64,000 nt of DNA from Naegleria gruberi. Lineage: Eukaryota. The notes beneath the pieces are model-generated. The model made no database searches. It was not told the DNA's origin and was given only the letters and a program-made list of their open reading frames with translations. The translations under genes and the position numbers were made by a program. The stretch lies in the NCBI GenBank assembly GCA_000004985.1, contig GG738888.1; one strand, 5' to 3'. Each line of letters begins with the position of its first letter. The stretch's first letter is position 1. Positions 8,956-57,984 of this stretch are shown here, in pieces.

Positions 8956-11900
8956 TTATTCGAAACGTTCCAACATTAATTCCAACTTGGTCAAAATTTC
9001 ATCAATGGTTGGTCTTTCTTTTGGATCTTTTCTCCATGCCCGTTTAATTAATTCTGTAATTTCATAAATTATTTCATAACAGTTAACATGTGAATTATTC
9101 GTTTCAGACAGGAATTCCCCACACCACTCTCTACATTCACCAATATCTGAGAATGGAATTATTGGTCTCAGATCTCCCTCACAGATACTCTTATGGAAAT
9201 GGTAAGTACTATTAAATGTATTTGCTTTTGATAACTTTAACTTTTTTAGAACTTTTGAATCGGTACTTTGATAAGGTTCCATAATTTCGAATAAAAGTTG
9301 CCACATAATTATGGACAAACTATAGATATCTATTGATCTAGCATCATCTCTTCCAATTTCACCTGAAAATAGCTCAGGACTCATGTAATTAAAAGTTCCA
9401 ATTTGTGAAGTAACTGCTGACATGGTATGAGAAGAGAATGCTCTTCCTAAACCAAAATCAGCCAATTTGGCAGTTCCATTTTTATCCAACAGAATATTTG
9501 CAGGTTTCAAATCTCTAAATAAAATTAAATTATGTTAATCCTCTTCTTAGAAAACTTACCTGTGAACAATATAATTTGGTTCCAAATGATGAAGATAATT
9601 AATACCACTTGCGACATTGACCAAAATCTCAAGTTTTTGTTTCAACGAACACTTTAAATAACCTCTTTGCAAAGAAGCAATTAAATTTTCCAAACTCTTA
9701 TCCATACATTCCATACATATAAATCTCTTTGTTGGGGTGGATGAAACTCCGTAAAATGAAATAATATTGGGATTTCTTAAATTGCTTAATAGAATTGCCT
9801 CATTCTTGAAATCATTTTCTGAAATATCCATATTATTCAAATCGAATACTTTGACAGCAACTAACATGCCATGGTATCTGGTTTGGAAAACACATCCAAT
9901 TCCTCCTTCTCCCAGTCTCTGAATAGGTTGATAATATTCAGCAATATTTGAAAACTTACTCTTATTGGTTTATCCATATTTAATTGCTCAATTGGAATTA
10001 TAAACTTATTCTCCTCATCAGAGCTATGATGTGAATCAATATTTGTAGAATCGTACAATTCAGTTTGTGTCAGTAATCTTTCGTCCAATTTGAGATCAGT
10101 ATTAATAATCCTTTTGTATTTTTTGAAAATGAAAATCAAGATGATTGAAATAATTGAGATAATTACTGTAAAGAATCCAACCAATCCAAGTACTACTCCT
10201 AACACTATAATATTACTTTCACAATTCTCTCCATTGAATCCTTCTTTACATTGACAAGTATTGTATTTAACACATTTTCCATTTTCACTACATGCCTTTG
10301 ATCCAGATTCTCCAAAACAAATTGGAATTTCACAATTAGATCCCTTGTATCCATTCTTACATTCACAAACATTTGGTGAAATACATGAACCATTCGAAGA
10401 ACAAACACTTGATTGATCACTTGAGATGCCAAAACATATTGGTACTTTACATTCCATTCCACTATATGCTGAGCTACATTCACACTTGTTAAAATTAATA
10501 CATGTTCCATTTCCATAATTGCAAGAGTGACTCTCATTGGCAGCTTTTCCAAAACACACTGGAATGCACTCGACCATATTCGTACTGAGAATGAAACCTT
10601 CCTGACAATAGGGCTTCATCTTTTGTATAATGTTAAGTTTGGAATCTGCAACATAAATTTCTCCCTTTCCATCATTCGAGAATGAAATTCCTTCTGGAAT
10701 TCCCAATGAAACATCATTTGCTGGTGATTCCTTTAATGAATAAGAAGATCCTTTTCCACCTCCAGCTATTGTTGAAATTATTCCATTTCGAATTCGTCTA
10801 ATACGATAGTTTTTAGAATCTGAAAAGACAATGTCTTCGTATGGAGAAATAATTTTCAAATAAGTGGGTGAATTAATTTGTGCCTTAATTGCCAAATCCT
10901 CATCTCCAGAAAAGCCTGCAATTCCATTTCCCGCCAAGGTTGATATAGTGCCATTTTTGTGAATAACTCTGATTCTGTGATTATTTGTATCTGAAAATAT
11001 GAGATTTCCTGTCGATTCTGAATAAACAATGCCTGAAGGATATGCTAAGGATGCTTGTGTAGCATAAATATTATCCAAGTTAAACCCATAGCCTCCATTT
11101 CCAGCTATTGTCGAAATAATTCCATTTCTAATTAATCTTATTAAATTGTTTTTCACATCTGTCAAGTAAATATCATTATTTGGAGCAACAGAGATACCAA
11201 GACAGTTTCCAATAGCATTTTCTGAAGGACCAAAGTCGCCAATTCCTCCTGCTAATGAATGAATGACATTGTTACCTGGATAATAAACTCTTAATCTATC
11301 ATTTCTATTGTCAGAAATTAGTACACGTTCTATTCCTCCTTCATCAACATACGAATGTACAAACACTGGCCCATTTAGTTTTGCCACAAGCGCATTTCCT
11401 CCATCTCCCTCTAAACCTGGAAACCCTGTTTGGCCTACCACAGTTCTAATAGTGAAATCACTTATTGAAATTGCTCTAATTTTGTTATTGAAAGTATCTA
11501 AAGTTCGATAATTATTAGAACACAAAGTCAAAGACAAAACCTACCTGCAATATAGATGGCTGTAACTCCAAAACTAATACTGTGAGGATAGAATAACTCA
11601 CTGTTAATTGCTGGTCCCTCATCACCTCCACTTCCATCAACACTTGATCCTGCAATAGTTTTCACAATGAAATTGGGAATTAATAATCTTATTCTATGGT
11701 TGAACGTATCTGCAACTAATATTCCCATTGTAACCGTAAAAACCACGTCCATTGGTGAGTTGAGTTGGGTTTCCAGTAGTAATTTACCATCACCATTAAA
11801 ACCTGGTATGCCTGTACCAGCAAAAGTTTTAACAGATTTGGTAGTTATTGAAATGGACCTTATCATGTGATTTCCTGAATCGGCAACATAGACATGTCCA

Positions 11901-13720
11901 TCTCCAAAGGATAGTCCTGTTGGACGATTAAAAGTACTATTCAATGCATGATCATTAATAGATCCCACAGTTCCTGGTTGACCAGCAAAAACAGAAACTG
12001 AAAAGTCTTGTAAATTAATAGCTCTAACACAATGATTATTAGAATCTGAAAATAGTATATATATATCCCTATTATCAATATCTACTACAGTGGTTATCCC
12101 ATATGGTCCATCAATACCATGCTTTTCTTTACTCGCAATAGTCGAAATAGTTCCATTCACTGTACTAATCATCAATACTCTATTATTATTTGTATCTGAA
12201 ATGAAAATTAACATATCACCCTTTTGTTGTAAGCTAGTTACTCCTGAGGGTCTGTTTAATACTGATGCCTTAACATTTGTCTTGATATCATTCAAAGATG
12301 ACAACTTATTTCCAAACAAAATGGAATGACTATTCATATTACTATTGTTGAATTTCACTAGAAAATTACTGGACCAATGGCTGATATCATTTGATACAAG
12401 TAAATTAGAATCCCTATCTAAAGCAATTGAATATGGATTTGAAATTACAGGTGTTGCCTTATAGAGTTCATTAGGAGATAATGGAATCAAGTCATTTTCA
12501 ATATTCTCTACTTTTCCACTCACTAGAGAATATCTGAGAATAGACGATGACCCAGATTCTGATATTAAAAGAGATGGATTTCCCTGATTATAAGAATAAA
12601 TTACATCTCTTGGAGATCTCAGAAGGAATGGTGCCTCCAATTCATTTGTGTTAAATACTCTCATTCCATAACTTGTCAATAGGGACGAAATAATTCCAGT
12701 TTTCAAATCAATTTGTCTTATTATACTATAGCCTATTAGCCACAATTTTCCTCTAATGAGTGAGATCGAAATATAATAACTCAATTGAGCATCAATTGCT
12801 AACCCAGAATCTCCCCTAGATCCCACAGTTGCATAAACTCCACTTATTACCTCAGAATTTACCTTGTTATTACCCTGAGAATCAATGGTAATTGTGGTTT
12901 TAAATAATTGATTATCTGGATATTGAGCGTGGTAGAATATTTCAATATTATTGTTCTGTGGGGTTAAATCCAATTCAAATCCCTGAATAAAACTTAAATC
13001 ACTTCTGCTCTGATAAAGAGTAGTAGTATTTCCATTCGAAAGTAACTTTCCAATACTATTATAACCAACAAGAAACAACTCATCGTTTGAATTGACATGC
13101 AAAGAGCTTATATCTGATTGTAGTGTTATCACTCGTGTTGTTCGTTGCCTTTCATCAATCATGTAAACTTTCTCTTTACCAAATATCGAATAGTAAATGT
13201 GAACATTCTCATTTGGACTACTCATATGAACAGCAAGTAAACAATTGGCAGCAAATTTCAATTCACTAAATGAATTAAATCCCTGTGAGGTAAAATCACA
13301 TGAATCTCCTGCTATTCTCTCTATCAAGTTGCTTGTCACATTAAATTTTGATAAAACACATTGTTTATCATTCCTACTTTCAACAACGTAGAAAATGTCA
13401 TGATGAATATTATTAATACTTGGTTGAGCAATGCATATGATATTTTCCAACAGTTTATCCACTCGTCCATTCGAAATATTCAATCTCATCAATGAAGAAA
13501 GTAAATCGGCTGAATGAAGTAAGTAAACGATATCTTCGGAATGTTGGAAGGATGGATAAACCTTTCGTATATCATAATCTAACCATGATGTGTTTTTCTG
13601 GCCGAATAGAGGTTGGATGGTGTATTTAACAGGTGTGTAGCCTGTTGATGATGCTGTCACAGTTGTCAAATAGATATTGATCAAAAAGCAGAGAAAAATC
13701 CAAGAGACGTATCTTTCCAT
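8956..13720 (-). CDS. Giant receptor-type protein kinase: signal peptide, long NHL-repeat beta-propeller region, EGF-like cysteine repeats, TM helix, Ser/Thr (TKL-like) kinase. 4 exons: 13720..11545, 11497..9960, 9918..9560, 9514..8956 (about 1544 aa)
   Basis: Track ORFs 11528..13720, 9861..11537, 9556..9867 and 8956..9510 join in-frame. Intron 1 is CAG|GTAGGT...CTTTAG| (47 nt). Intron 2 is AAGA|GTAAGT...TATTCAG| (41 nt), restoring the glycine loop LGEGGIGCVF...VAVK. Intron 3 is CACAG|GTAAGT...TTATTTAG| (45 nt), restoring HR|DLKPANILLD. Summed exon length 4632 nt is divisible by 3. N-terminus MERYVSWIFLCFLINIYLTTVTASS is signal-like. Many NHL-type motifs (e.g. YVADSGNHMIRSI, IYLTDVKNNLIRLI, IYVADSKLNIIQKM). 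Four tenascin-type EGF units (CxxGxxGxxCxxPIC). TM segment IIVLGVVLGLVGFFTVIISIISIILIFIF. Kinase motifs VAVK, HRDLKPANILL, DFGLGR, MSPE. Confidence 0.75.
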
Positions 13721-13958: not shown

Positions 13959-15155
13959 TTAATTCAAGATGCATTTCTTTTCTTTTTTTAAACTATTTAA
14001 ATATTTAATATCTTTTTCAATCACTTGTTGTAATATTGAATTTAAATTTGTTTGATTACCAAACCTAATTAACTTAACACCTTCTAGAAATGCATTTTCT
14101 ATACCCTCACCAGTTTTAGCACTACAAATAACTATATTTGTATTTGTTAGTTGATACTCATTAATAATATTAATAATTTCATTTTTCAATTTATCAATTT
14201 CATTGTTATCAGTAATTAAATCCATCTTATTTAATGCAAATATAATTGGAATATCTTCTGAATCTCTGATTCTAATTAATTGTTCAACTAAGGTCTTACA
14301 GAATTCAGCTGAGGAAAAATTAAATAAATCGCAAACATTGATAAAACAATCACCAGTTCTCATATATTGATCTATTCATATTAAATTATTGAGATATTCA
14401 AATCAACTTACCCCTATCAAATTAAATGATAAACAATCACATTTCACAACTTACCTCATAGCTGAGTATTCCTCTTGTCCATCTAATTAAATTAATTAGG
14501 ATTATCAAGTTTAATAATTCAATAAATGAAAATACTAACATGTATCTAATATATCAAGTTCAAACACCCTTCCATCAAATTCAATATTTCTTCTATAATC
14601 ATCATAATAACTTGGATCATATTGATCTGTATATCTATTCTGAATAAATCTAACCACAATCGATGATTTGCCTTATATCAAATATAATTACAATAAAAAT
14701 TAGATGAATAACATACCAACACCACCATCACCTATCATTACAAATTTAAGGTAATTGTCAGTAAAATCTAAATATTTAAATTGTTTATATTTAATATATA
14801 AAGTTAACAAAACAATCCTTTTTAAATTTGTTTTTTTAATTATTTGTTCCTTAATTATTTCATTATTCACTTTTATTGGTAAATAATTTTTCAATAACTC
14901 AAAATAAAATTCATTAAAATAATCACATTGATCATCATCGTACATTAATTTTTTACAACTTGTTTGAAAATTTAATAATTGTTTAATTTTAGTTGTATAT
15001 TTAATATTATAAGAATAACTAGTATCAAGAACATATGATAATATATTTAAATGTATTTCCAAGGGTAAATTAACGAACGTATTTTCATTATTGAATGATC
15101 GCATTTTTTTTAATTTAATTAATAATAACAAAAGTTCATCAAAGTAATCTTGCAA
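13959..15155 (-). CDS. Ras-like small GTPase with about 140-aa N-terminal extension (F-box-like LPxEIxxxIL motif); multi-exon, one junction unresolved
   Basis: Exon 1 (15155..14717) ends in the P-loop KFVMIGDGGVG|GTATGT. Exon 2 (14671..about 14540) continues KSSIVVRFIQNRYTDQYDPSYYDDYRRNIEFDGRVFELDILDT. A 28-nt exon (14482..14455) encodes (Y/A)GQEEYSAMR (switch II DxxGQEEYSAMR). The last exon (ORF 13959..14363) has YMRTGDCFINV...NKMDL...CSAKTGEGI (G4 NKxD, G5 SAK). Reading GT-AG sites as printed gives a +1 phase conflict at the last intron and DTYGQ instead of canonical DTAGQ. Confidence 0.55.
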
Positions 15156-19571: not shown

Positions 19572-21413
19572 ATGTTTCCTGTTATTAAATTCCATTCCGA
19601 TATAGAATCTGCCATCAAGGGAAGAAAAGAATTTGTAACGCAGGTCGATGAAGGCTTCCGATTCATCAAATATAAATCCATCGTAGAGAATACATTTGCC
19701 GATCAATCGACCATGAAGGATATGACCGATCGGGAAAGGCTTGATCAATTAATTAGACGCGAATGTAGAGGAATTATCTTTGAAGAGAAGAGTAAGAAAA
19801 TTGTGTGCAGAAAATTCCACAAATTTTTCAATATTAATGAAAGAGTTGAGAGTAATATTGAAAAGATTAATTGGAAACGACCATTTGTGGTTGTGGAAAA
19901 GATGGATGGAAGTTTGGTTTCTCCAATTTTTGTTTCTTCAAAGAGGGATATTTCAGATATTCGATTTACAACCATGTTGGGATTTACTGCTATGGCCAAG
20001 AATATGGTTGCTGGATATATTGATAAGAATTTAGCGCAGAAGAATTTGAGAAAACCATTCTTGGAATTTTGTAAATATTGTTTGGATCAGGGTTGGAGTT
20101 GTAGTTTCGAATATACTGGACCACAGAATATTGTCGTGATTAAATATTTGGAAGAGAAATTGACTCTACTTGCCATTCGTCATACAGAGAGTGGTGAATA
20201 TTTGACCTACCAGGAAATGAAAGATATTCTCGATAAGAATCCAAATTGGCAAAAGGCAGTCAATTTGGTGAGCTTGTGGAAAGATTTCCCACAAGGAACT
20301 GAAGAACCTCAAAAACTCTTATCAGAAATTTATGAACAGAAAGGATTGGAAGGATACGTCATTCGATTCAATGATGGTGATTTCTACAAGGCCAAAACTA
20401 AATATTATATGTGTTTCCATGGAATTGCAGATAATTCTTCAGAACCTAACAAACAGGGATCTTCATCCATGTTCAGTGCTGAGAAAATTAGAGAACGACA
20501 CATTGTTAAGGCAATTTTAAGTGATGTGATTGATGATGTAATCAGTGGAGTGTTCTGGACTACTGAAATGAAACAAGTAGTTTCAAAATATCGAATTGAA
20601 TTGGAAACTAAAATTTTGGCCAAATTTGAAGAGGAAATCTGGCCAATCCTTAAAAAGGCAATTTCATTCTCAAAGAAGGGTGTTCCAAATGAGTCGATCA
20701 CTTCGAGAGTTATTTCTGGGAAATTAGCCACTACATTTACTGGTGATTTTATTAAGGATATGATTTCGAAACTTTCCAAAGAAGAAAGTTCAAAGAATTC
20801 GAATTACAAAAATCAAGAAAGTGACGAAGAAGAGGAAGAATTTGATTCGAAACCAAGTCAACAATCAAGAGGAAATATGTGGAGCGTTCTCCAAGAGGAA
20901 GAAATTGAAGATGCCGAGCAAGATGCCAAACTCGACAATGAATCAGATGGAGAAAAGGAGGAGAAAAAATTGGAAGAAACTATTCAGCAAACTTCCAATC
21001 TAGTAATAATTGAGGAAGAGCAACCAACCCAAAGTATTTCATTCGACATTTCAGGAATGAAATTTGCACCAATTAAGCCTACTGAGAAACCACAATCAGA
21101 GCAAGAACAAATCGAATCTCAAAAGAATGTTGCCTACGAATGTTACAAAATTTTCTTACAAACCAAGATTTTCCAAGTGAGCGAGCCAAAAGCATTCGAA
21201 ACTAAAAAGTCCAAAGTCTACGATTGGTTAAACGTCGATTTGAAATCTGGAATTATGGGAAACTATGCATTCGATAGTAAAACTGGATCCCTTGTCAAGA
21301 ATTCCACAAGAAAAGTATTGACCAAACCATCAGCCTCTTCATCTAAACATATTGAAGAGGATGATCACGATTTCTCCAACAGCAAGAATAAGAAGAATAA
21401 AAAACGAAAGTAA
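19572..21413 (+). CDS. Putative polynucleotide ligase/nucleotidyltransferase (RNA-ligase-like, KxDG motif) with acidic low-complexity C-terminal tail
   Basis: 613-aa ORF. VVVEKMDGSLVS matches covalent nucleotidyltransferase motif I (KxDG[SG]) of ATP-dependent RNA/DNA ligases and capping enzymes. Downstream segments (YVIRFNDGDFYKAKTKYY, EGYV) resemble ligase motifs IV/V. The C-terminal about 200 aa are E/D/K-rich. Family assignment is motif-based only. Confidence 0.35.
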   Translation: MFPVIKFHSDIESAIKGRKEFVTQVDEGFRFIKYKSIVENTFADQSTMKDMTDRERLDQLIRRECRGIIFEEKSKKIVCRKFHKFFNINERVESNIEKINWKRPFVVVEKMDGSLVSPIFVSSKRDISDIRFTTMLGFTAMAKNMVAGYIDKNLAQKNLRKPFLEFCKYCLDQGWSCSFEYTGPQNIVVIKYLEEKLTLLAIRHTESGEYLTYQEMKDILDKNPNWQKAVNLVSLWKDFPQGTEEPQKLLSEIYEQKGLEGYVIRFNDGDFYKAKTKYYMCFHGIADNSSEPNKQGSSSMFSAEKIRERHIVKAILSDVIDDVISGVFWTTEMKQVVSKYRIELETKILAKFEEEIWPILKKAISFSKKGVPNESITSRVISGKLATTFTGDFIKDMISKLSKEESSKNSNYKNQESDEEEEEFDSKPSQQSRGNMWSVLQEEEIEDAEQDAKLDNESDGEKEEKKLEETIQQTSNLVIIEEEQPTQSISFDISGMKFAPIKPTEKPQSEQEQIESQKNVAYECYKIFLQTKIFQVSEPKAFETKKSKVYDWLNVDLKSGIMGNYAFDSKTGSLVKNSTRKVLTKPSASSSKHIEEDDHDFSNSKNKKNKKRK

Positions 21414-54450: not shown

Positions 54451-54531
54451 GTTGAGGTGGCCGAGTGGTTAAGGCGCCAGCCTGCTAAGTTGGTGGAGAA
54501 ATCCGCGTGGGTTCGAATCCCATCCTCAACG
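54451..54531 (+). tRNA. tRNA-Ser (anticodon GCU), class II tRNA with long variable arm
   Basis: GTTGAGGTGGCCGAGTGGTTAAGGCGCCAGCCTGCTAAGTTGGTGGAGAAATCCGCGTGGGTTCGAATCCCATCCTCAACG. 7-bp acceptor stem GTTGAGG/CCTCAAC. D-arm GCCGAGTGGTTAAGGC. Anticodon loop CT-GCT-AA. Long variable arm. T-arm GGGTTCGAATCCC. Discriminator G followed by TTTTTT (Pol III terminator). Confidence 0.85.
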
Positions 54532-56589: not shown

Positions 56590-57984
56590 NNNNNNNNNNN
56601 NNNNNNNNNNNNNNNNNNNNNNNNNNNNNNNNNNNNNNNNNNNNNNNNNNNNNNNNNNNNNNNNNNNNNNNNNNNNNNNNNNNNNNNNNNNNNNNNNNNN
56701 NNNNNNNNNNNNNNNNNNNNNNNNNNNNNNNNNNNNNNNNNNNNNNNNNNNNNNNNNNNNNNNNNNNNNNNNNNNNNNNNNNNNNNNNNNNNNNNNNNNN
56801 NNNNNNNNNNNNNNNNNNNNNNNNNNNNNNNNNNNNNNNNNNNNNNNNNNNNNNNNNNNNNNNNNNNNNNNNNNNNNNNNNNNNNNNNNNNNNNNNNNNN
56901 NNNNNNNNNNNNNNNNNNNNNNNNNNNNNNNNNNNNNNNNNNNNNNNNNNNNNNNNNNNNNNNNNNNNNNNNNNNNNNNNNNNNNNNNNNNNNNNNNNNN
57001 NNNNNNNNNNNNNNNNNNNNNNNNNNNNNNNNNNNNNNNNNNNNNNNNNNNNNNNNNNNNNNNNNNNNNNNNNNNNNNNNNNNNNNNNNNNNNNNNNNNN
57101 NNNNNNNNNNNNNNNNNNNNNNNNNNNNNNNNNNNNNNNNNNNNNNNNNNNNNNNNNNNNNNNNNNNNNNNNNNNNNNNNNNNNNNNNNNNNNNNNNNNN
57201 NNNNNNNNNNNNNNNNNNNNNNNNNNNNNNNNNNNNNNNNNNNNNNNNNNNNNNNNNNNNNNNNNNNNNNNNNNNNNNNNNNNNNNNNNNNNNNNNNNNN
57301 NNNNNNNNNNNNNNNNNNNNNNNNNNNNNNNNNNNNNNNNNNNNNNNNNNNNNNNNNNNNNNNNNNNNNNNNNNNNNNNNNNNNNNNNNNNNNNNNNNNN
57401 NNNNNNNNNNNNNNNNNNNNNNNNNNNNNNNNNNNNNNNNNNNNNNNNNNNNNNNNNNNNNNNNNNNNNNNNNNNNNNNNNNNNNNNNNNNNNNNNNNNN
57501 NNNNNNNNNNNNNNNNNNNNNNNNNNNNNNNNNNNNNNNNNNNNNNNNNNNNNNNNNNNNNNNNNNNNNNNNNNNNNNNNNNNNNNNNNNNNNNNNNNNN
57601 NNNNNNNNNNNNNNNNNNNNNNNNNNNNNNNNNNNNNNNNNNNNNNNNNNNNNNNNNNNNNNNNNNNNNNNNNNNNNNNNNNNNNNNNNNNNNNNNNNNN
57701 NNNNNNNNNNNNNNNNNNNNNNNNNNNNNNNNNNNNNNNNNNNNNNNNNNNNNNNNNNNNNNNNNNNNNNNNNNNNNNNNNNNNNNNNNNNNNNNNNNNN
57801 NNNNNNNNNNNNNNNNNNNNNNNNNNNNNNNNNNNNNNNNNNNNNNNNNNNNNNNNNNNNNNNNNNNNNNNNNNNNNNNNNNNNNNNNNNNNNNNNNNNN
57901 NNNNNNNNNNNNNNNNNNNNNNNNNNNNNNNNNNNNNNNNNNNNNNNNNNNNNNNNNNNNNNNNNNNNNNNNNNNNNNNNNNNN
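56590..57984. other. Assembly gap (1,395 N)
   Basis: Uninterrupted run of n. The X-only ORFs in the track across this span are artefacts. Both flanking genes (DENN on +, family copy 0 on -) run into it. Confidence 0.99.

What the first reader, a model, noticed from the sequence alone, without database searches (positions are those of the whole stretch)
13959..15155. Ras-like GTPase carrying a 140-aa N-terminal F-box-like extension, with an atypical switch-II and an unresolved splice phase
The GTPase core is split into at least four exons: P-loop GDGGVG|KSS, DTxGQEEYSAMR on a 28-nt micro-exon, then NKMD and SAK. It is preceded in the same ORF by about 140 residues containing LPLEIHLNILSYVL, an F-box-like LPxEIxxxIL signature. 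With the GT-AG sites as printed, the DxxG motif reads DTYGQ rather than DTAGQ. The last junction is off by one nucleotide. Either the gene uses a non-canonical splice site, the assembly has a 1-nt indel near 14364-14400, or the copy is a decaying pseudogene. An F-box fused to a Ras-family GTPase would be an unusual signalling architecture.
Basis: partly seen in the sequence, partly recalled or inferred. Interest (0 to 1): 0.5.

Follow-up and report, generated by a model that had tools for sequence, protein, structure and literature searches.

The report
Naegleria Ras paralog with 2-nt exon
This is an already catalogued, apparently intact Ras-family gene of the amoeba Naegleria gruberi; its "broken" reading frame is best explained by a two-nucleotide exon between two minimal introns, and its N-terminal F-box-like motif is shared by a whole Naegleria-specific Ras subfamily but is not proven to be an F-box.

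Summary
On the minus strand at 13959-15104 lies a split Ras-type GTPase gene with a 118-aa N-terminal extension, DTYGQ in place of DTAGQ, and a frame problem at the last junction.

The window is Naegleria gruberi NEG-M. The gene is XP_002673837.1. The reference model skips the 28-nt exon, which removes GQEEYSAMRD. Herman et al. 2021 (Table S8) corrected it by hand to the same 320-aa protein I derived.

An independent assembly from a 0.7%-diverged strain has an identical junction, so an assembly indel is excluded.

The frame closes with canonical GT-AG sites if GG (14412-14413) is a 2-nt exon between introns of 41 and 40 nt, both starting GTAAGTTG. The second intron then splits the Asp69 codon as G|AT. 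A paralog that carries a 9-nt microexon at this spot does the same. Chance probability is about 1e-3 or lower. There is no transcript evidence.

Tyr59 is genuine: the intron sits at the same position as in a paralog that reads G|CT (Ala).

The extension is conserved in at least 12 N. gruberi Ras paralogs. Only its first helix resembles an F-box (Pfam below threshold, hhalign 83%). [quoted passage not shown]

The parts
14717..15104 (-). Exon 1. ATG at 15104-15102. Encodes the 118-aa N-terminal extension, strand beta-1 and the P-loop up to GDGGV plus the first base of Gly15.
   Evidence: no in-frame ATG further upstream
15027..15068 (-). LPLEIHLNILSYVL (residues 13-26), the F-box-helix-1-like motif.
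   Evidence: translation; Pfam F-box-like E 0.035-0.33, below threshold; hhalign 71-83%, 18-21 columns
14672..14716 (-). Intron 1, 45 nt, GTATGT..AAG, phase 1 in the Gly15 codon (G|GC).
   Evidence: paralog L001 has an intron at the same site
14540..14671 (-). Exon 2: KSSIVVRFIQNRYTDQYDPSYYDDYRRNIEFDGRVFELDILDT plus the first base (T) of codon 59. Switch I has Ser in place of Thr35.
14483..14539 (-). Intron 2, 57 nt, GTTAGT..TAG, phase 1 in codon 59 (T|AT = Tyr).
   Evidence: same position and phase as intron 2 of paralog L001, where the codon is G|CT = Ala
14455..14482 (-). Exon 3, 28 nt: the last two bases (AT) of the Tyr59 codon, GQEEYSAM, and the first two bases of Arg68. The NCBI model XP_002673837.1 skips it.
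14414..14454 (-). Intron 3a, 41 nt, GTAAGTTG..TTTGATAG.
   Evidence: identical in the independent assemblies L004 and L005
14412..14413 (-). Proposed 2-nt exon GG: third base of Arg68 (AGG) and first base of Asp69 (G|AT).
   Evidence: inferred, no transcript evidence
14372..14411 (-). Intron 3b, 40 nt, GTAAGTTG..ATGAATAG, phase 1 in the Asp69 codon.
   Evidence: same phase and same downstream exon start (ATCAATATATGAGA) as the last intron of paralog L003
13959..14371 (-). Last exon: the last two bases of Asp69, QYMRTGDCF ... NKMD ... SAK ... a family-specific C-terminal segment, CILN (13973-13962) and the TAA stop (13961-13959).

Best explanation
The locus is the Naegleria gruberi gene XP_002673837.1. 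It is an intact member of a Naegleria-specific, expanded subfamily of Ras-derived GTPases.

Each member has four parts:
- an alpha-helical N-terminal extension of about 115-130 aa that begins with LPxEIxxxILSF,
- a Ras-type G domain,
- a family-specific C-terminal segment,
- a CAAX prenylation box.

The mRNA is made from five exons. The apparent frameshift disappears because the 83-nt gap after the 28-nt exon is really two minimal GT-AG introns (41 and 40 nt) separated by a 2-nt exon, GG. This yields ...EEYSAMR-DQYMRTG..., identical to H-Ras residues 60-75. The two introns are presumably removed one after the other by intron definition (inferred).

A59Y (DTYGQ) is a genuine substitution in a subfamily whose G3/switch-II motif is generally relaxed; most paralogs have DTAGP.

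Shown:
- gene identity
- family membership
- sequence correctness
- intron positions in paralogs

Inferred:
- use of the 2-nt exon
- prenylation
- any Skp1/SCF link through the N-terminal motif
For: Organism:
- A neighbouring ORF is 100% identical to NAEGRDRAFT_80835 on a 351,708-bp contig.

Annotation:
- The exon-3-skipping translation (310 aa) is exactly XP_002673837.1 / D2VPZ7, on that same contig.
- The 320-aa translation is identical to the manually corrected model in Herman et al. 2021, Table S8. There it is not flagged as a pseudogene.

Family:
- Exhaustive phmmer with the extension finds only N. gruberi 'ras family small GTPase' clusters (E 1e-7 and 4e-5).
- Full-length alignment gives 38-39% identity, including both the N- and C-terminal extras.
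- At least 12 paralogs share the extension.

G domain:
- Pfam Ras 1.4e-33.
- Best solved relative is H-Ras, 1.7e-37, query residues 120-291.

Integrity:
- 0 stops in frame against 32 and 61 in the other two frames, at 22.7% GC.

The sequence is correct:
- L004 and L005 come from run ERR1078381. They are identical over 14340-14709 except for one synonymous change, and the contig as a whole is about 0.7% diverged from the window.

The 2-nt exon:
- It is the only solution I found that uses GT-AG sites throughout and gives a full-length G3/switch II.
- Both mini-introns start with GTAAGTTG, which occurs only 6 times in 128 kb counting both strands.
- AGNNGTAAGT occurs once in the window, and that occurrence is here.
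- In shuffles of the 83-nt gap, a frame-restoring AG..GTWAGT arrangement arises in 1.1e-3 of trials. One that also encodes Arg-Asp arises in 4e-5.
- Introns of 41-57 nt are normal in this genome and in this family.
- Paralog L003 has a 9-nt exon at the same place. Its downstream intron also splits Asp69 as G|AT, before the same ATCAATATATGAGA. Its two NCBI models differ only by including or skipping that exon.
- Exons of 1 nt (APC11, VPS55) and 4 nt (MPC1) are experimentally established elsewhere and are typically mis-annotated.
Against: - There is no transcript or junction evidence of any kind. No protein derived from a spliced transcript of this gene is in the 15-billion-protein collection; the 320-aa sequence is absent.
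- 40 nt is at or just below the shortest introns I could document here (41-42 nt).
- The candidate branch sites (TTTAAT, 8-9 nt from the 3' splice site) are weak versions of the CTAAT seen in neighbouring introns.
- Two spliceosomes cannot sit 2 nt apart, so ordered splicing has to be assumed.
- The subfamily does contain pseudogenes.
- The supplementary files of Herman et al. do not use the terms 'microexon', 'non-canonical' or 'frameshift', so I could not find how they closed the frame.
Confidence: 0.65

Rival explanations
1. Young pseudogene. A 1-nt gain or 2-nt loss at the exon 3 / exon 4 junction killed the frame, and the rest has not yet decayed. The internal AG-GG-GTAAGTTG is coincidence.
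For: - The subfamily evolves by birth and death, with several members marked as putative pseudogenes.
- There is no transcript-derived protein in the collection.
- The CDS GC (22.7%) is well below the window average of about 33%.
Against: - 320 codons are open at 22.7% GC, while the other two frames carry 32 and 61 stops.
- All G1, G3, G4 and G5 motifs and the CAAX box are intact.
- The same structure and an open last exon are kept in a strain 0.7% diverged.
- A frame-restoring arrangement arises by chance at about 1e-3, and one that also gives Arg-Asp at 4e-5.
- The curators did not flag it as a pseudogene.
Confidence: 0.15
2. The reference model is the real product, or one of several real products. 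Exon 3 is skipped (a 168-nt intron, 14372-14539), giving an in-frame 310-aa protein without G60-D69. Alternatively, the downstream acceptor at 14359 is used, deleting DQYMR. Either way the product is a switch-II-less pseudo-GTPase.
For: - Both options use GT-AG sites and are in frame.
- The skipped form is the NCBI model.
- Other subfamily members have degenerate G3 motifs such as DTIES and DCSTD.
Against: - The 28-nt segment encodes GQEEYSAMR, matching H-Ras residue for residue. That is inexplicable if it were never exonic.
- Its flanks are good splice sites.
- The downstream acceptor lies behind the first AG after the branch region.
Confidence: 0.1
3. A single non-canonical GT-AT intron of 81 nt (14454-14374), with the acceptor 2 nt upstream of the AG. 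It gives AGA-GAT and therefore the same protein.
For: It yields the identical 320-aa protein (model B).
Against: - It needs a non-AG acceptor next to a perfect TAG.
- It leaves the internal acceptor and GTAAGTTG donor unexplained.
- It places the intron in phase 2 of Arg68, instead of the phase-1 Asp69 position seen in paralog L003.
Confidence: 0.05
4. Assembly or sequencing error (a 1-nt indel) in the NEG-M reference near 14364-14460.
For: The window contains an assembly gap elsewhere, at 56590-57984.
Against: The ENA and Logan assemblies of run ERR1078381 come from a strain that differs at about 35 sites in 4.75 kb. They are base-for-base identical from 14709 to 14340 except for one synonymous G>A at 14640.
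Confidence: 0.03

Closest known systems
N. gruberi Ras paralogs with the same N-terminal extension: XP_002668120, XP_002673033/XP_002668509, XP_002677816, XP_002673059, XP_002681395 and others (Herman et al. 2021, Table S8)
   Same: - The order is the same: LPxEIxxxILSF, then NFQSxxKK, YFNxFWW and LKRK/IxLL, then the Ras G domain, a conserved C-terminal segment and CAAX.
- Introns lie in the Gly15 codon, at codon 59/60 and in the Asp69 codon.
   Different: - Only 28-51% identical in the extension.
- Keeps the catalytic Gln61, where most paralogs have Pro (DTAGP).
- Has Tyr59.
- CAAX ends in Asn (CILN) rather than Met.
- Has a 2-nt exon rather than a 9-nt exon or none.
H-/K-/N-Ras (Pfam PF00071)
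   Same: - About 42% identity over residues 120-291.
- GxGGVGKS, DxxGQEEYSAMRDQYMRTG, NKxD, SAK and CAAX are all present.
   Different: - A 118-aa N-terminal extension.
- A59Y, T35S, and an effector loop reading YDPSYYDDY instead of YDPTIEDSY.
- An extra segment of about 30 aa before the CAAX box.
Naegleria F-box-GTPase fusions (Rab-like, Rho/Rac, Ran, G-alpha) described in the supplement of PMC8296547
   Same: An N-terminal LPxE(I/L)-type motif lies upstream of a small-GTPase domain, in some cases together with CAAX.
   Different: Those proteins were assigned an F-box by the authors' domain searches. This Ras subfamily was not so labelled, and here it scores below the Pfam threshold.
TbFRP (FYVE + F-box + Ras-like GTPase; Euglenozoa; PMC3593210)
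   Same: An F-box upstream of a small GTPase, in another discoban lineage.
   Different: - No FYVE domain here.
- The TbFRP G domain is Rab18-like.
- The authors found no N. gruberi ortholog.
RhoBTB (a Rho GTPase fused to Cul3-binding BTB domains; comparison from general knowledge, and cited in PMC8296547)
   Same: The concept is the same: a small GTPase fused to a cullin-adaptor module.
   Different: A different adaptor (BTB against a putative F-box), a different GTPase family and a different domain order. The adaptor function here is unproven.
Ultra-short constitutive exons: the 1-nt exons of plant APC11 and VPS55 (PMC4674806, PMC8831610) and the 4-nt exon of human MPC1 (PMC9929638)
   Same: - The exon is too short to be found by aligners or gene finders.
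- It is flanked by strong GTRAGT donors.
- The reference annotation is wrong as a result.
   Different: - Here the exon is 2 nt, in a heterolobosean, between two of the shortest introns of the genome.
- It is not experimentally verified.

Membership tests
Ras family small GTPase (PF00071) | Profile score above the Pfam gathering threshold | tested here: met
   116.2 bits against 21.6, residues 120-285; H-Ras 1.7e-37
Ras family small GTPase (PF00071) | G1 P-loop GxxxxGK[ST] | tested here: met
   GDGGVGKS, split by intron 1
Ras family small GTPase (PF00071) | G2 / switch I invariant Thr35 | tested here: not met
   Ser aligns with Thr35 (YDPS against YDPT). This is conservative, but the effector loop is otherwise diverged as well.
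Ras family small GTPase (PF00071) | G3 DxxG plus the catalytic Gln61 | tested here: met
   DTYGQ: Asp57, Gly60 and Gln61 are present; position 59 is Tyr instead of Ala.
Ras family small GTPase (PF00071) | G4 NKxD, G5 SAK and a C-terminal CAAX box | tested here: met
   NKMD, SAK and CILN. Prenylation itself is not testable here.
F-box (PF00646 / PF12937) | Profile score above the gathering threshold | tested here: not met
   11-14 bits against 24.3. Six of 12 paralog extensions give sub-threshold hits, best E 0.044, and none passes.
F-box (PF00646 / PF12937) | Helix-1 motif LPxE(I/L)xxxI(L/F) | tested here: met
   LPLEIHLNILSY. hhalign of the family profile against 8 Pfam-validated F-boxes gives 83.5% probability over 18 columns.
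F-box (PF00646 / PF12937) | Helices 2-3 (Lxx(L)xxVxKxW...LW core) giving the three-helix fold | tested here: inconclusive
   - A plausible counterpart exists (NFQSxxKKI ... FNxFWW), but hhalign does not extend into it.
- The AF2 models are unreliable: pLDDT 38 and 50.
- Foldseek and a PDB profile search found nothing.
F-box (PF00646 / PF12937) | Binds Skp1 | not testable with these tools
   Needs pull-down or co-folding with N. gruberi Skp1.
Naegleria N-extended Ras subfamily | Conserved N-terminal extension and C-terminal segment shared with the paralogs | tested here: met
   phmmer E 1e-7 and 4e-5 with the extension alone; alignments A1 and A4
Ultra-short microexon | Canonical AG upstream and GT downstream; inclusion restores the frame and the homologous residues | tested here: met
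   ATAG|GG|GTAAGTTG gives AGG GAT = Arg68 Asp69; chance 1e-3 to 4e-5
Ultra-short microexon | Flanking introns long enough to be spliced in this species | tested here: inconclusive
   The flanking introns are 41 and 40 nt. The shortest other introns inferred here are 41 nt (window 9919-9959 and L003) and 42 nt (L001).
Ultra-short microexon | Junction seen in transcripts | not testable with these tools
   No RNA-seq access. No transcript-derived ORF is in the protein collection.
TbFRP family | N-terminal FYVE domain | tested here: not met
   No FYVE hit in Pfam even at E 10.

The most novel reading that the evidence does not exclude
Two readings remain open.

1. The N-terminal extension is a divergent but functional F-box. 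This prenylated Ras subfamily (at least 12 genes) would then consist of membrane-anchored, nucleotide-switchable SCF substrate receptors. That would extend Naegleria's F-box-GTPase theme to Ras proper.

2. The gene is expressed through a constitutively spliced 2-nt exon. As far as the searched literature shows, that would be the shortest internal exon reported outside plants. It may have arisen when an intron was inserted 2 nt upstream of an existing one.
Probability: 0.2. Interest if true: 0.6.

Novelty: new member of a known kind. Interest (0 to 1): 0.35.

Why it matters
- **Annotation.** The RefSeq/UniProt protein for this gene (XP_002673837.1 / D2VPZ7) lacks switch II because a 28-nt exon was skipped. 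A 2-nt exon explains why gene finders failed. It also gives a concrete, cheap RT-PCR test of how short an exon a heterolobosean spliceosome can handle.
- **Signalling.** An expanded, Naegleria-specific Ras subfamily carries an F-box-like N-terminus and a relaxed switch II. That makes it a candidate for GTPase-coupled ubiquitination, an idea already raised for other Naegleria GTPase families but so far untested.

Neither point changes a general principle.

Tried and rejected
**Exact look-ups.**
- Look-ups of neighbouring ORFs and of the exon-1 and exon-4 ORFs failed. The annotated models differ from the raw ORFs, and the second strain differs by two residues.
- Look-ups of the NCBI paralog models P0242-P0244 also failed.

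**Searches for homologs.**
- The word-index search with the full protein returned only ordinary Ras proteins at about 42% identity. It missed the self and paralog entries.
- The N-terminal word search returned nothing.
- There is no paralog inside the window.
- Two metagenome scans, one with the single protein and one with the N-terminal alignment, found no relatives.

**Structure.**
- AF2 of the extension gave pLDDT 38 alone and 50 with 4 sequences.
- Foldseek against the PDB gave only E > 3 helical noise, so no fold assignment is possible.
- The profile of the extension against PDB sequences gave no hit.

**F-box comparison.**
- hhalign with relaxed settings or in global mode did not extend the F-box match beyond helix 1.

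**Origin of intron 3a.**
- I considered that intron 3a is a copy of intron 3b. They are the most similar intron pair of the ten compared, but the support is modest (83 of 5000 shuffles). This remains a hint only.

**Splicing alternatives rejected.**
- Retaining intron 3a as exon runs into TGA.
- Using the internal acceptor alone also runs into TGA (read directly).
Full report
**What is in the sequence**

The feature lies on the minus strand. From the first ATG (15104), an open frame encodes 118 residues with no Pfam domain above threshold. It then runs into strand beta-1 and the P-loop of a Ras-type GTPase (KFVMIGDGGVG). I located the junctions by pattern search and translated the alternatives.

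| Part | Window coordinates | Notes |
|---|---|---|
| Exon 1 | 15104-14717 | extension, beta-1, P-loop |
| Intron 1 | 14716-14672 | 45 nt, phase 1 in Gly15 |
| Exon 2 | 14671-14540 | KSS...LDILDT |
| Intron 2 | 14539-14483 | 57 nt, GTTAGT..TAG, phase 1 |
| Exon 3 | 14482-14455 | 28 nt, GQEEYSAMR |
| Gap | 14454-14372 | 83 nt |
| Last exon | 14371-13959 | to the TAA stop |

The last exon carries NKMD, SAK and a C-terminal CILN.

- Codon 59 reads T|AT, so the G3 motif is DTYGQ.
- Treating the 83-nt gap as one GT-AG intron gives a 961-nt CDS that shifts frame and stops after SIYENW.
The extension is about 118 aa rather than about 140, because the TTG at 15155 is only a bacterial-style ORF start and no in-frame ATG lies upstream of 15104.

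Pfam Ras scores 116 bits. The best solved relatives are H-, K- and N-Ras (1.7e-37, residues 120-291).

**Whose gene it is**

A tubulin-tyrosine-ligase ORF in the window is 100% identical to NAEGRDRAFT_80835 of Naegleria gruberi NEG-M, on a contig of 351,708 bp.

An exact-sequence look-up of my alternative translations gave two results:
- The exon-3-skipping product (310 aa, ...LDILDTYQYMRTG...) is precisely XP_002673837.1 / EFC41093.1 / UniProt D2VPZ7, 'ras family small GTPase', on that same contig.
- The 320-aa version is not in the collection.

Herman et al. 2021 (BMC Biol 19:142, PMC8296547), Additional file 10 Table S8, list XP_002673837.1 with a manually corrected sequence. That sequence is identical, residue for residue, to my 320-aa model, including DTYGQEEYSAMRDQYMRTG and CILN. 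They do not flag it as a pseudogene and list no additional domain. Their supplementary files never use the terms 'microexon', 'non-canonical' or 'frameshift'. I therefore found no statement of how they closed the frame.

**Is the sequence right?**

The cluster of XP_002673837.1 also holds two ORFs called on assemblies of run ERR1078381 (ENA and Logan).

- Their contigs (L004, L005) come from a slightly different strain. About 35 differences occur in 4.75 kb. Five of them fall in this gene: three synonymous and two adjacent replacements, QL to KP.
- From 14709 to 14340 they are identical to the window apart from one synonymous G>A at 14640. That stretch covers both ends of the 28-nt exon, the GGGG run and the last acceptor.
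- An assembly indel is therefore excluded.

**How the frame closes**

The 83-nt gap reads GTAAGTTG...TTTGATAG|GG|GTAAGTTG...ATGAATAG. If GG (14413-14412) is an exon, the gap consists of two GT-AG introns of 41 and 40 nt. The message then reads ATG AGG GAT CAA, that is Met67-Arg68-Asp69-Gln70, exactly as in Ras.

Support for this model:

1. *It is the only full-length solution I found that uses GT-AG sites throughout.* The other in-frame options delete switch II: exon-3 skipping, or a downstream acceptor that removes DQYMR.
2. *The arrangement is unlikely by chance.*
   - GTAAGTTG occurs 6 times in 128 kb counting both strands, and two of those lie 43 nt apart here.
   - AGNNGTAAGT occurs once in the window, at this spot.
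   - In 200,000 shuffles of the gap, a frame-restoring acceptor-donor pair that leaves two introns of at least 38 nt arose in 0.11% of trials. One that also encodes Arg-Asp arose in 0.004%.
3. *Introns this short are normal here.* The other introns I could infer in the window and in two paralog loci measure 41-88 nt, with GTAAGT-type donors.
4. *Paralogs agree.* Genomic DNA for two paralogs came from the same metagenome.
   - In L001 (the XP_002677816 type), intron 2 sits at the same site and phase as here. The codon there is G|CT = Ala, and there is no third intron.
   - In L003 (the XP_002673033/668509 type), the same region holds a 9-nt exon (CATGGAGAG) between introns of 41 and 51 nt. The downstream intron splits Asp69 as G|AT, in front of ATCAATATATGAGA, exactly as intron 3b does here.
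   - The two NCBI models of that paralog differ only in including the 9-nt exon (STWRDQ) or skipping it (S-N-Q).
   - The curated model of the closest paralog, XP_002668120, contains the string GKSIYFIIIYLIYI between R and DQ. This looks like read-through of a roughly 42-nt intron at the same G|AT position. That inference rests on the protein sequence only.

A GT-AT intron ending 2 nt earlier would give the same protein. It would leave the internal splice signals unexplained, and it would move the intron away from the conserved Asp69 position.

Introns 3a and 3b are the most similar pair among ten family introns (83 of 5000 shuffles reach their score). This is a weak hint that 3a arose as a copy of 3b, inserted at an AG|G site 2 nt upstream.

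Exons of 1 nt (plant APC11 and VPS55) and 4 nt (human MPC1) are experimentally established, and they are typically missed by annotation.

What is missing is any transcript evidence.

**Tyr59 and the G domain**

Intron 2 is at the same position and phase as in L001, and both exonic sides of the codon differ (T|AT against G|CT). Tyr59 is therefore a real substitution and not a splice artefact.

- The rest of G3/switch II (GQEEYSAMRDQYMRTG) is identical to H-Ras.
- Thr35 is replaced by Ser, and the effector loop is diverged (YDPSYYDDY).
- G1, G4 and G5 are intact.
- Within the subfamily the G3 motif is loose. Most members have DTAGP, which lacks the catalytic Gln. Others have DTIES or DCSTD. This gene is among the more canonical members.
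- From general knowledge of Ras, position 59 packs against the gamma-phosphate and switch II, and A59 mutants alter hydrolysis and exchange. An effect of Tyr59 on the GTPase cycle is therefore likely, but it is untested.

**The N-terminal extension**

- An exhaustive phmmer search of 1.84 billion representative proteins with residues 1-119 found only two clusters. Both are N. gruberi 'ras family small GTPase' proteins (E 1e-7 and 4e-5).
- Table S8 contains at least 12 N. gruberi Ras entries with the same extension, which I aligned. The conserved blocks are LPxEIxxxILSF, NFQS(L/I)xKK, YFNxFWW and LKRK(I/V)LL.
- The extension is thus a conserved domain of a lineage-specific Ras subfamily, and not a fused upstream gene.

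Is it an F-box?
- Pfam F-box-like is the top hit for this protein and for 6 of 12 members. It always falls below threshold (11-14 bits against 24.3) and covers only profile positions 1-19.
- Profile-profile comparison against eight F-boxes, each of which I first confirmed to pass Pfam's threshold, gives 71% probability with 4 family sequences and 83.5% with 12. The match covers only 18-21 columns, which is helix 1. Relaxed alignment settings do not extend it.
- AlphaFold models were unreliable (pLDDT 38 and 50), though all-helical. Foldseek and a PDB profile search were empty.
- Verdict: an F-box-like helix-1 motif is present, but F-box membership is not shown.

Context raises the prior. [quoted passage not shown] Ras is not among the families named. 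In the related Euglenozoa, TbFRP combines FYVE, an F-box and a GTPase (PMC3593210).

**Most likely function (inferred)**

This is a membrane-anchored (CAAX) Ras-type switch. Its N-terminal helical domain mediates a family-specific protein interaction, possibly recruitment of Skp1/SCF. I put the F-box reading at roughly 40-50%.

**Novelty**

- The gene, its corrected protein and the F-box-GTPase theme in Naegleria are all published.
- What appears undescribed is the 2-nt exon that the corrected protein implies, the parallel 9-nt exon in a paralog, and the F-box-like motif of the Ras subfamily.
- This is a new member of known kinds, of moderate interest, and directly testable by RT-PCR.

Noticed in passing
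L003:651-659 (paralog XP_002673033 / XP_002668509): A 9-nt exon, CATGGAGAG, lies between introns of 41 and 51 nt. The two NCBI models of this gene, on a 337-kb contig and a 9.6-kb contig, differ only by including it (STWRDQ) or skipping it (S-N-Q). One of the two reference proteins is therefore mis-spliced.
   Followed up: yes
L003:1203-1321: A 5S rRNA gene (Rfam 105 bits) lies about 50 nt downstream of the stop codon of the Ras paralog.
   Followed up: partly
window 56590-57984: A run of 1395 N (an assembly gap). It creates the spurious long ORFs listed on both strands and the GC dip to 0.099 in the composition profile.
   Followed up: yes
window 54451-54531 (+): A tRNA-Ser(GCT) gene lies between two protein-coding ORFs.
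   Followed up: partly
window 9861-13720 (-): Two adjacent large ORFs have NHL repeats and teneurin-type EGF/NHL domains. They are probably one gene or a tandem pair, and a candidate 41-nt intron sits at 9919-9959. The same arrangement is present in the second strain (L005).
   Followed up: partly
window 19572-21413 (+): A 613-aa ORF with a T4 Rnl1-type RNA ligase domain (Pfam RNA_lig_T4_1, 1.1e-35).
   Followed up: no
window 13959-15104 versus the rest of the window: The CDS of this gene is 22.7% GC, and the 14-16 kb bin is 25.9%. Elsewhere the window runs at about 33-36% (a second low bin, 38-40 kb, is 28.2%). The gene is markedly more AT-rich than its neighbours, and I have no explanation.
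   Followed up: no
L004:263-751 (Logan ORF P0247): The Logan gene call reads through introns 3a and 3b with TGA translated as Trp. An alternative genetic code was evidently used by the caller, so the collection holds an artefactual 162-aa 'protein' as the representative of this gene's cluster. This is probably why the first homology search missed the self hit.
   Followed up: partly
Herman et al. 2021, Table S8, entry XP_002668120.1*: The curated model of the closest paralog contains GKSIYFIIIYLIYI between R68 and D69. This looks like an in-frame read-through of a roughly 42-nt intron, and the entry also has degenerate G motifs. It is possibly a decaying copy or an unfinished model.
   Followed up: no
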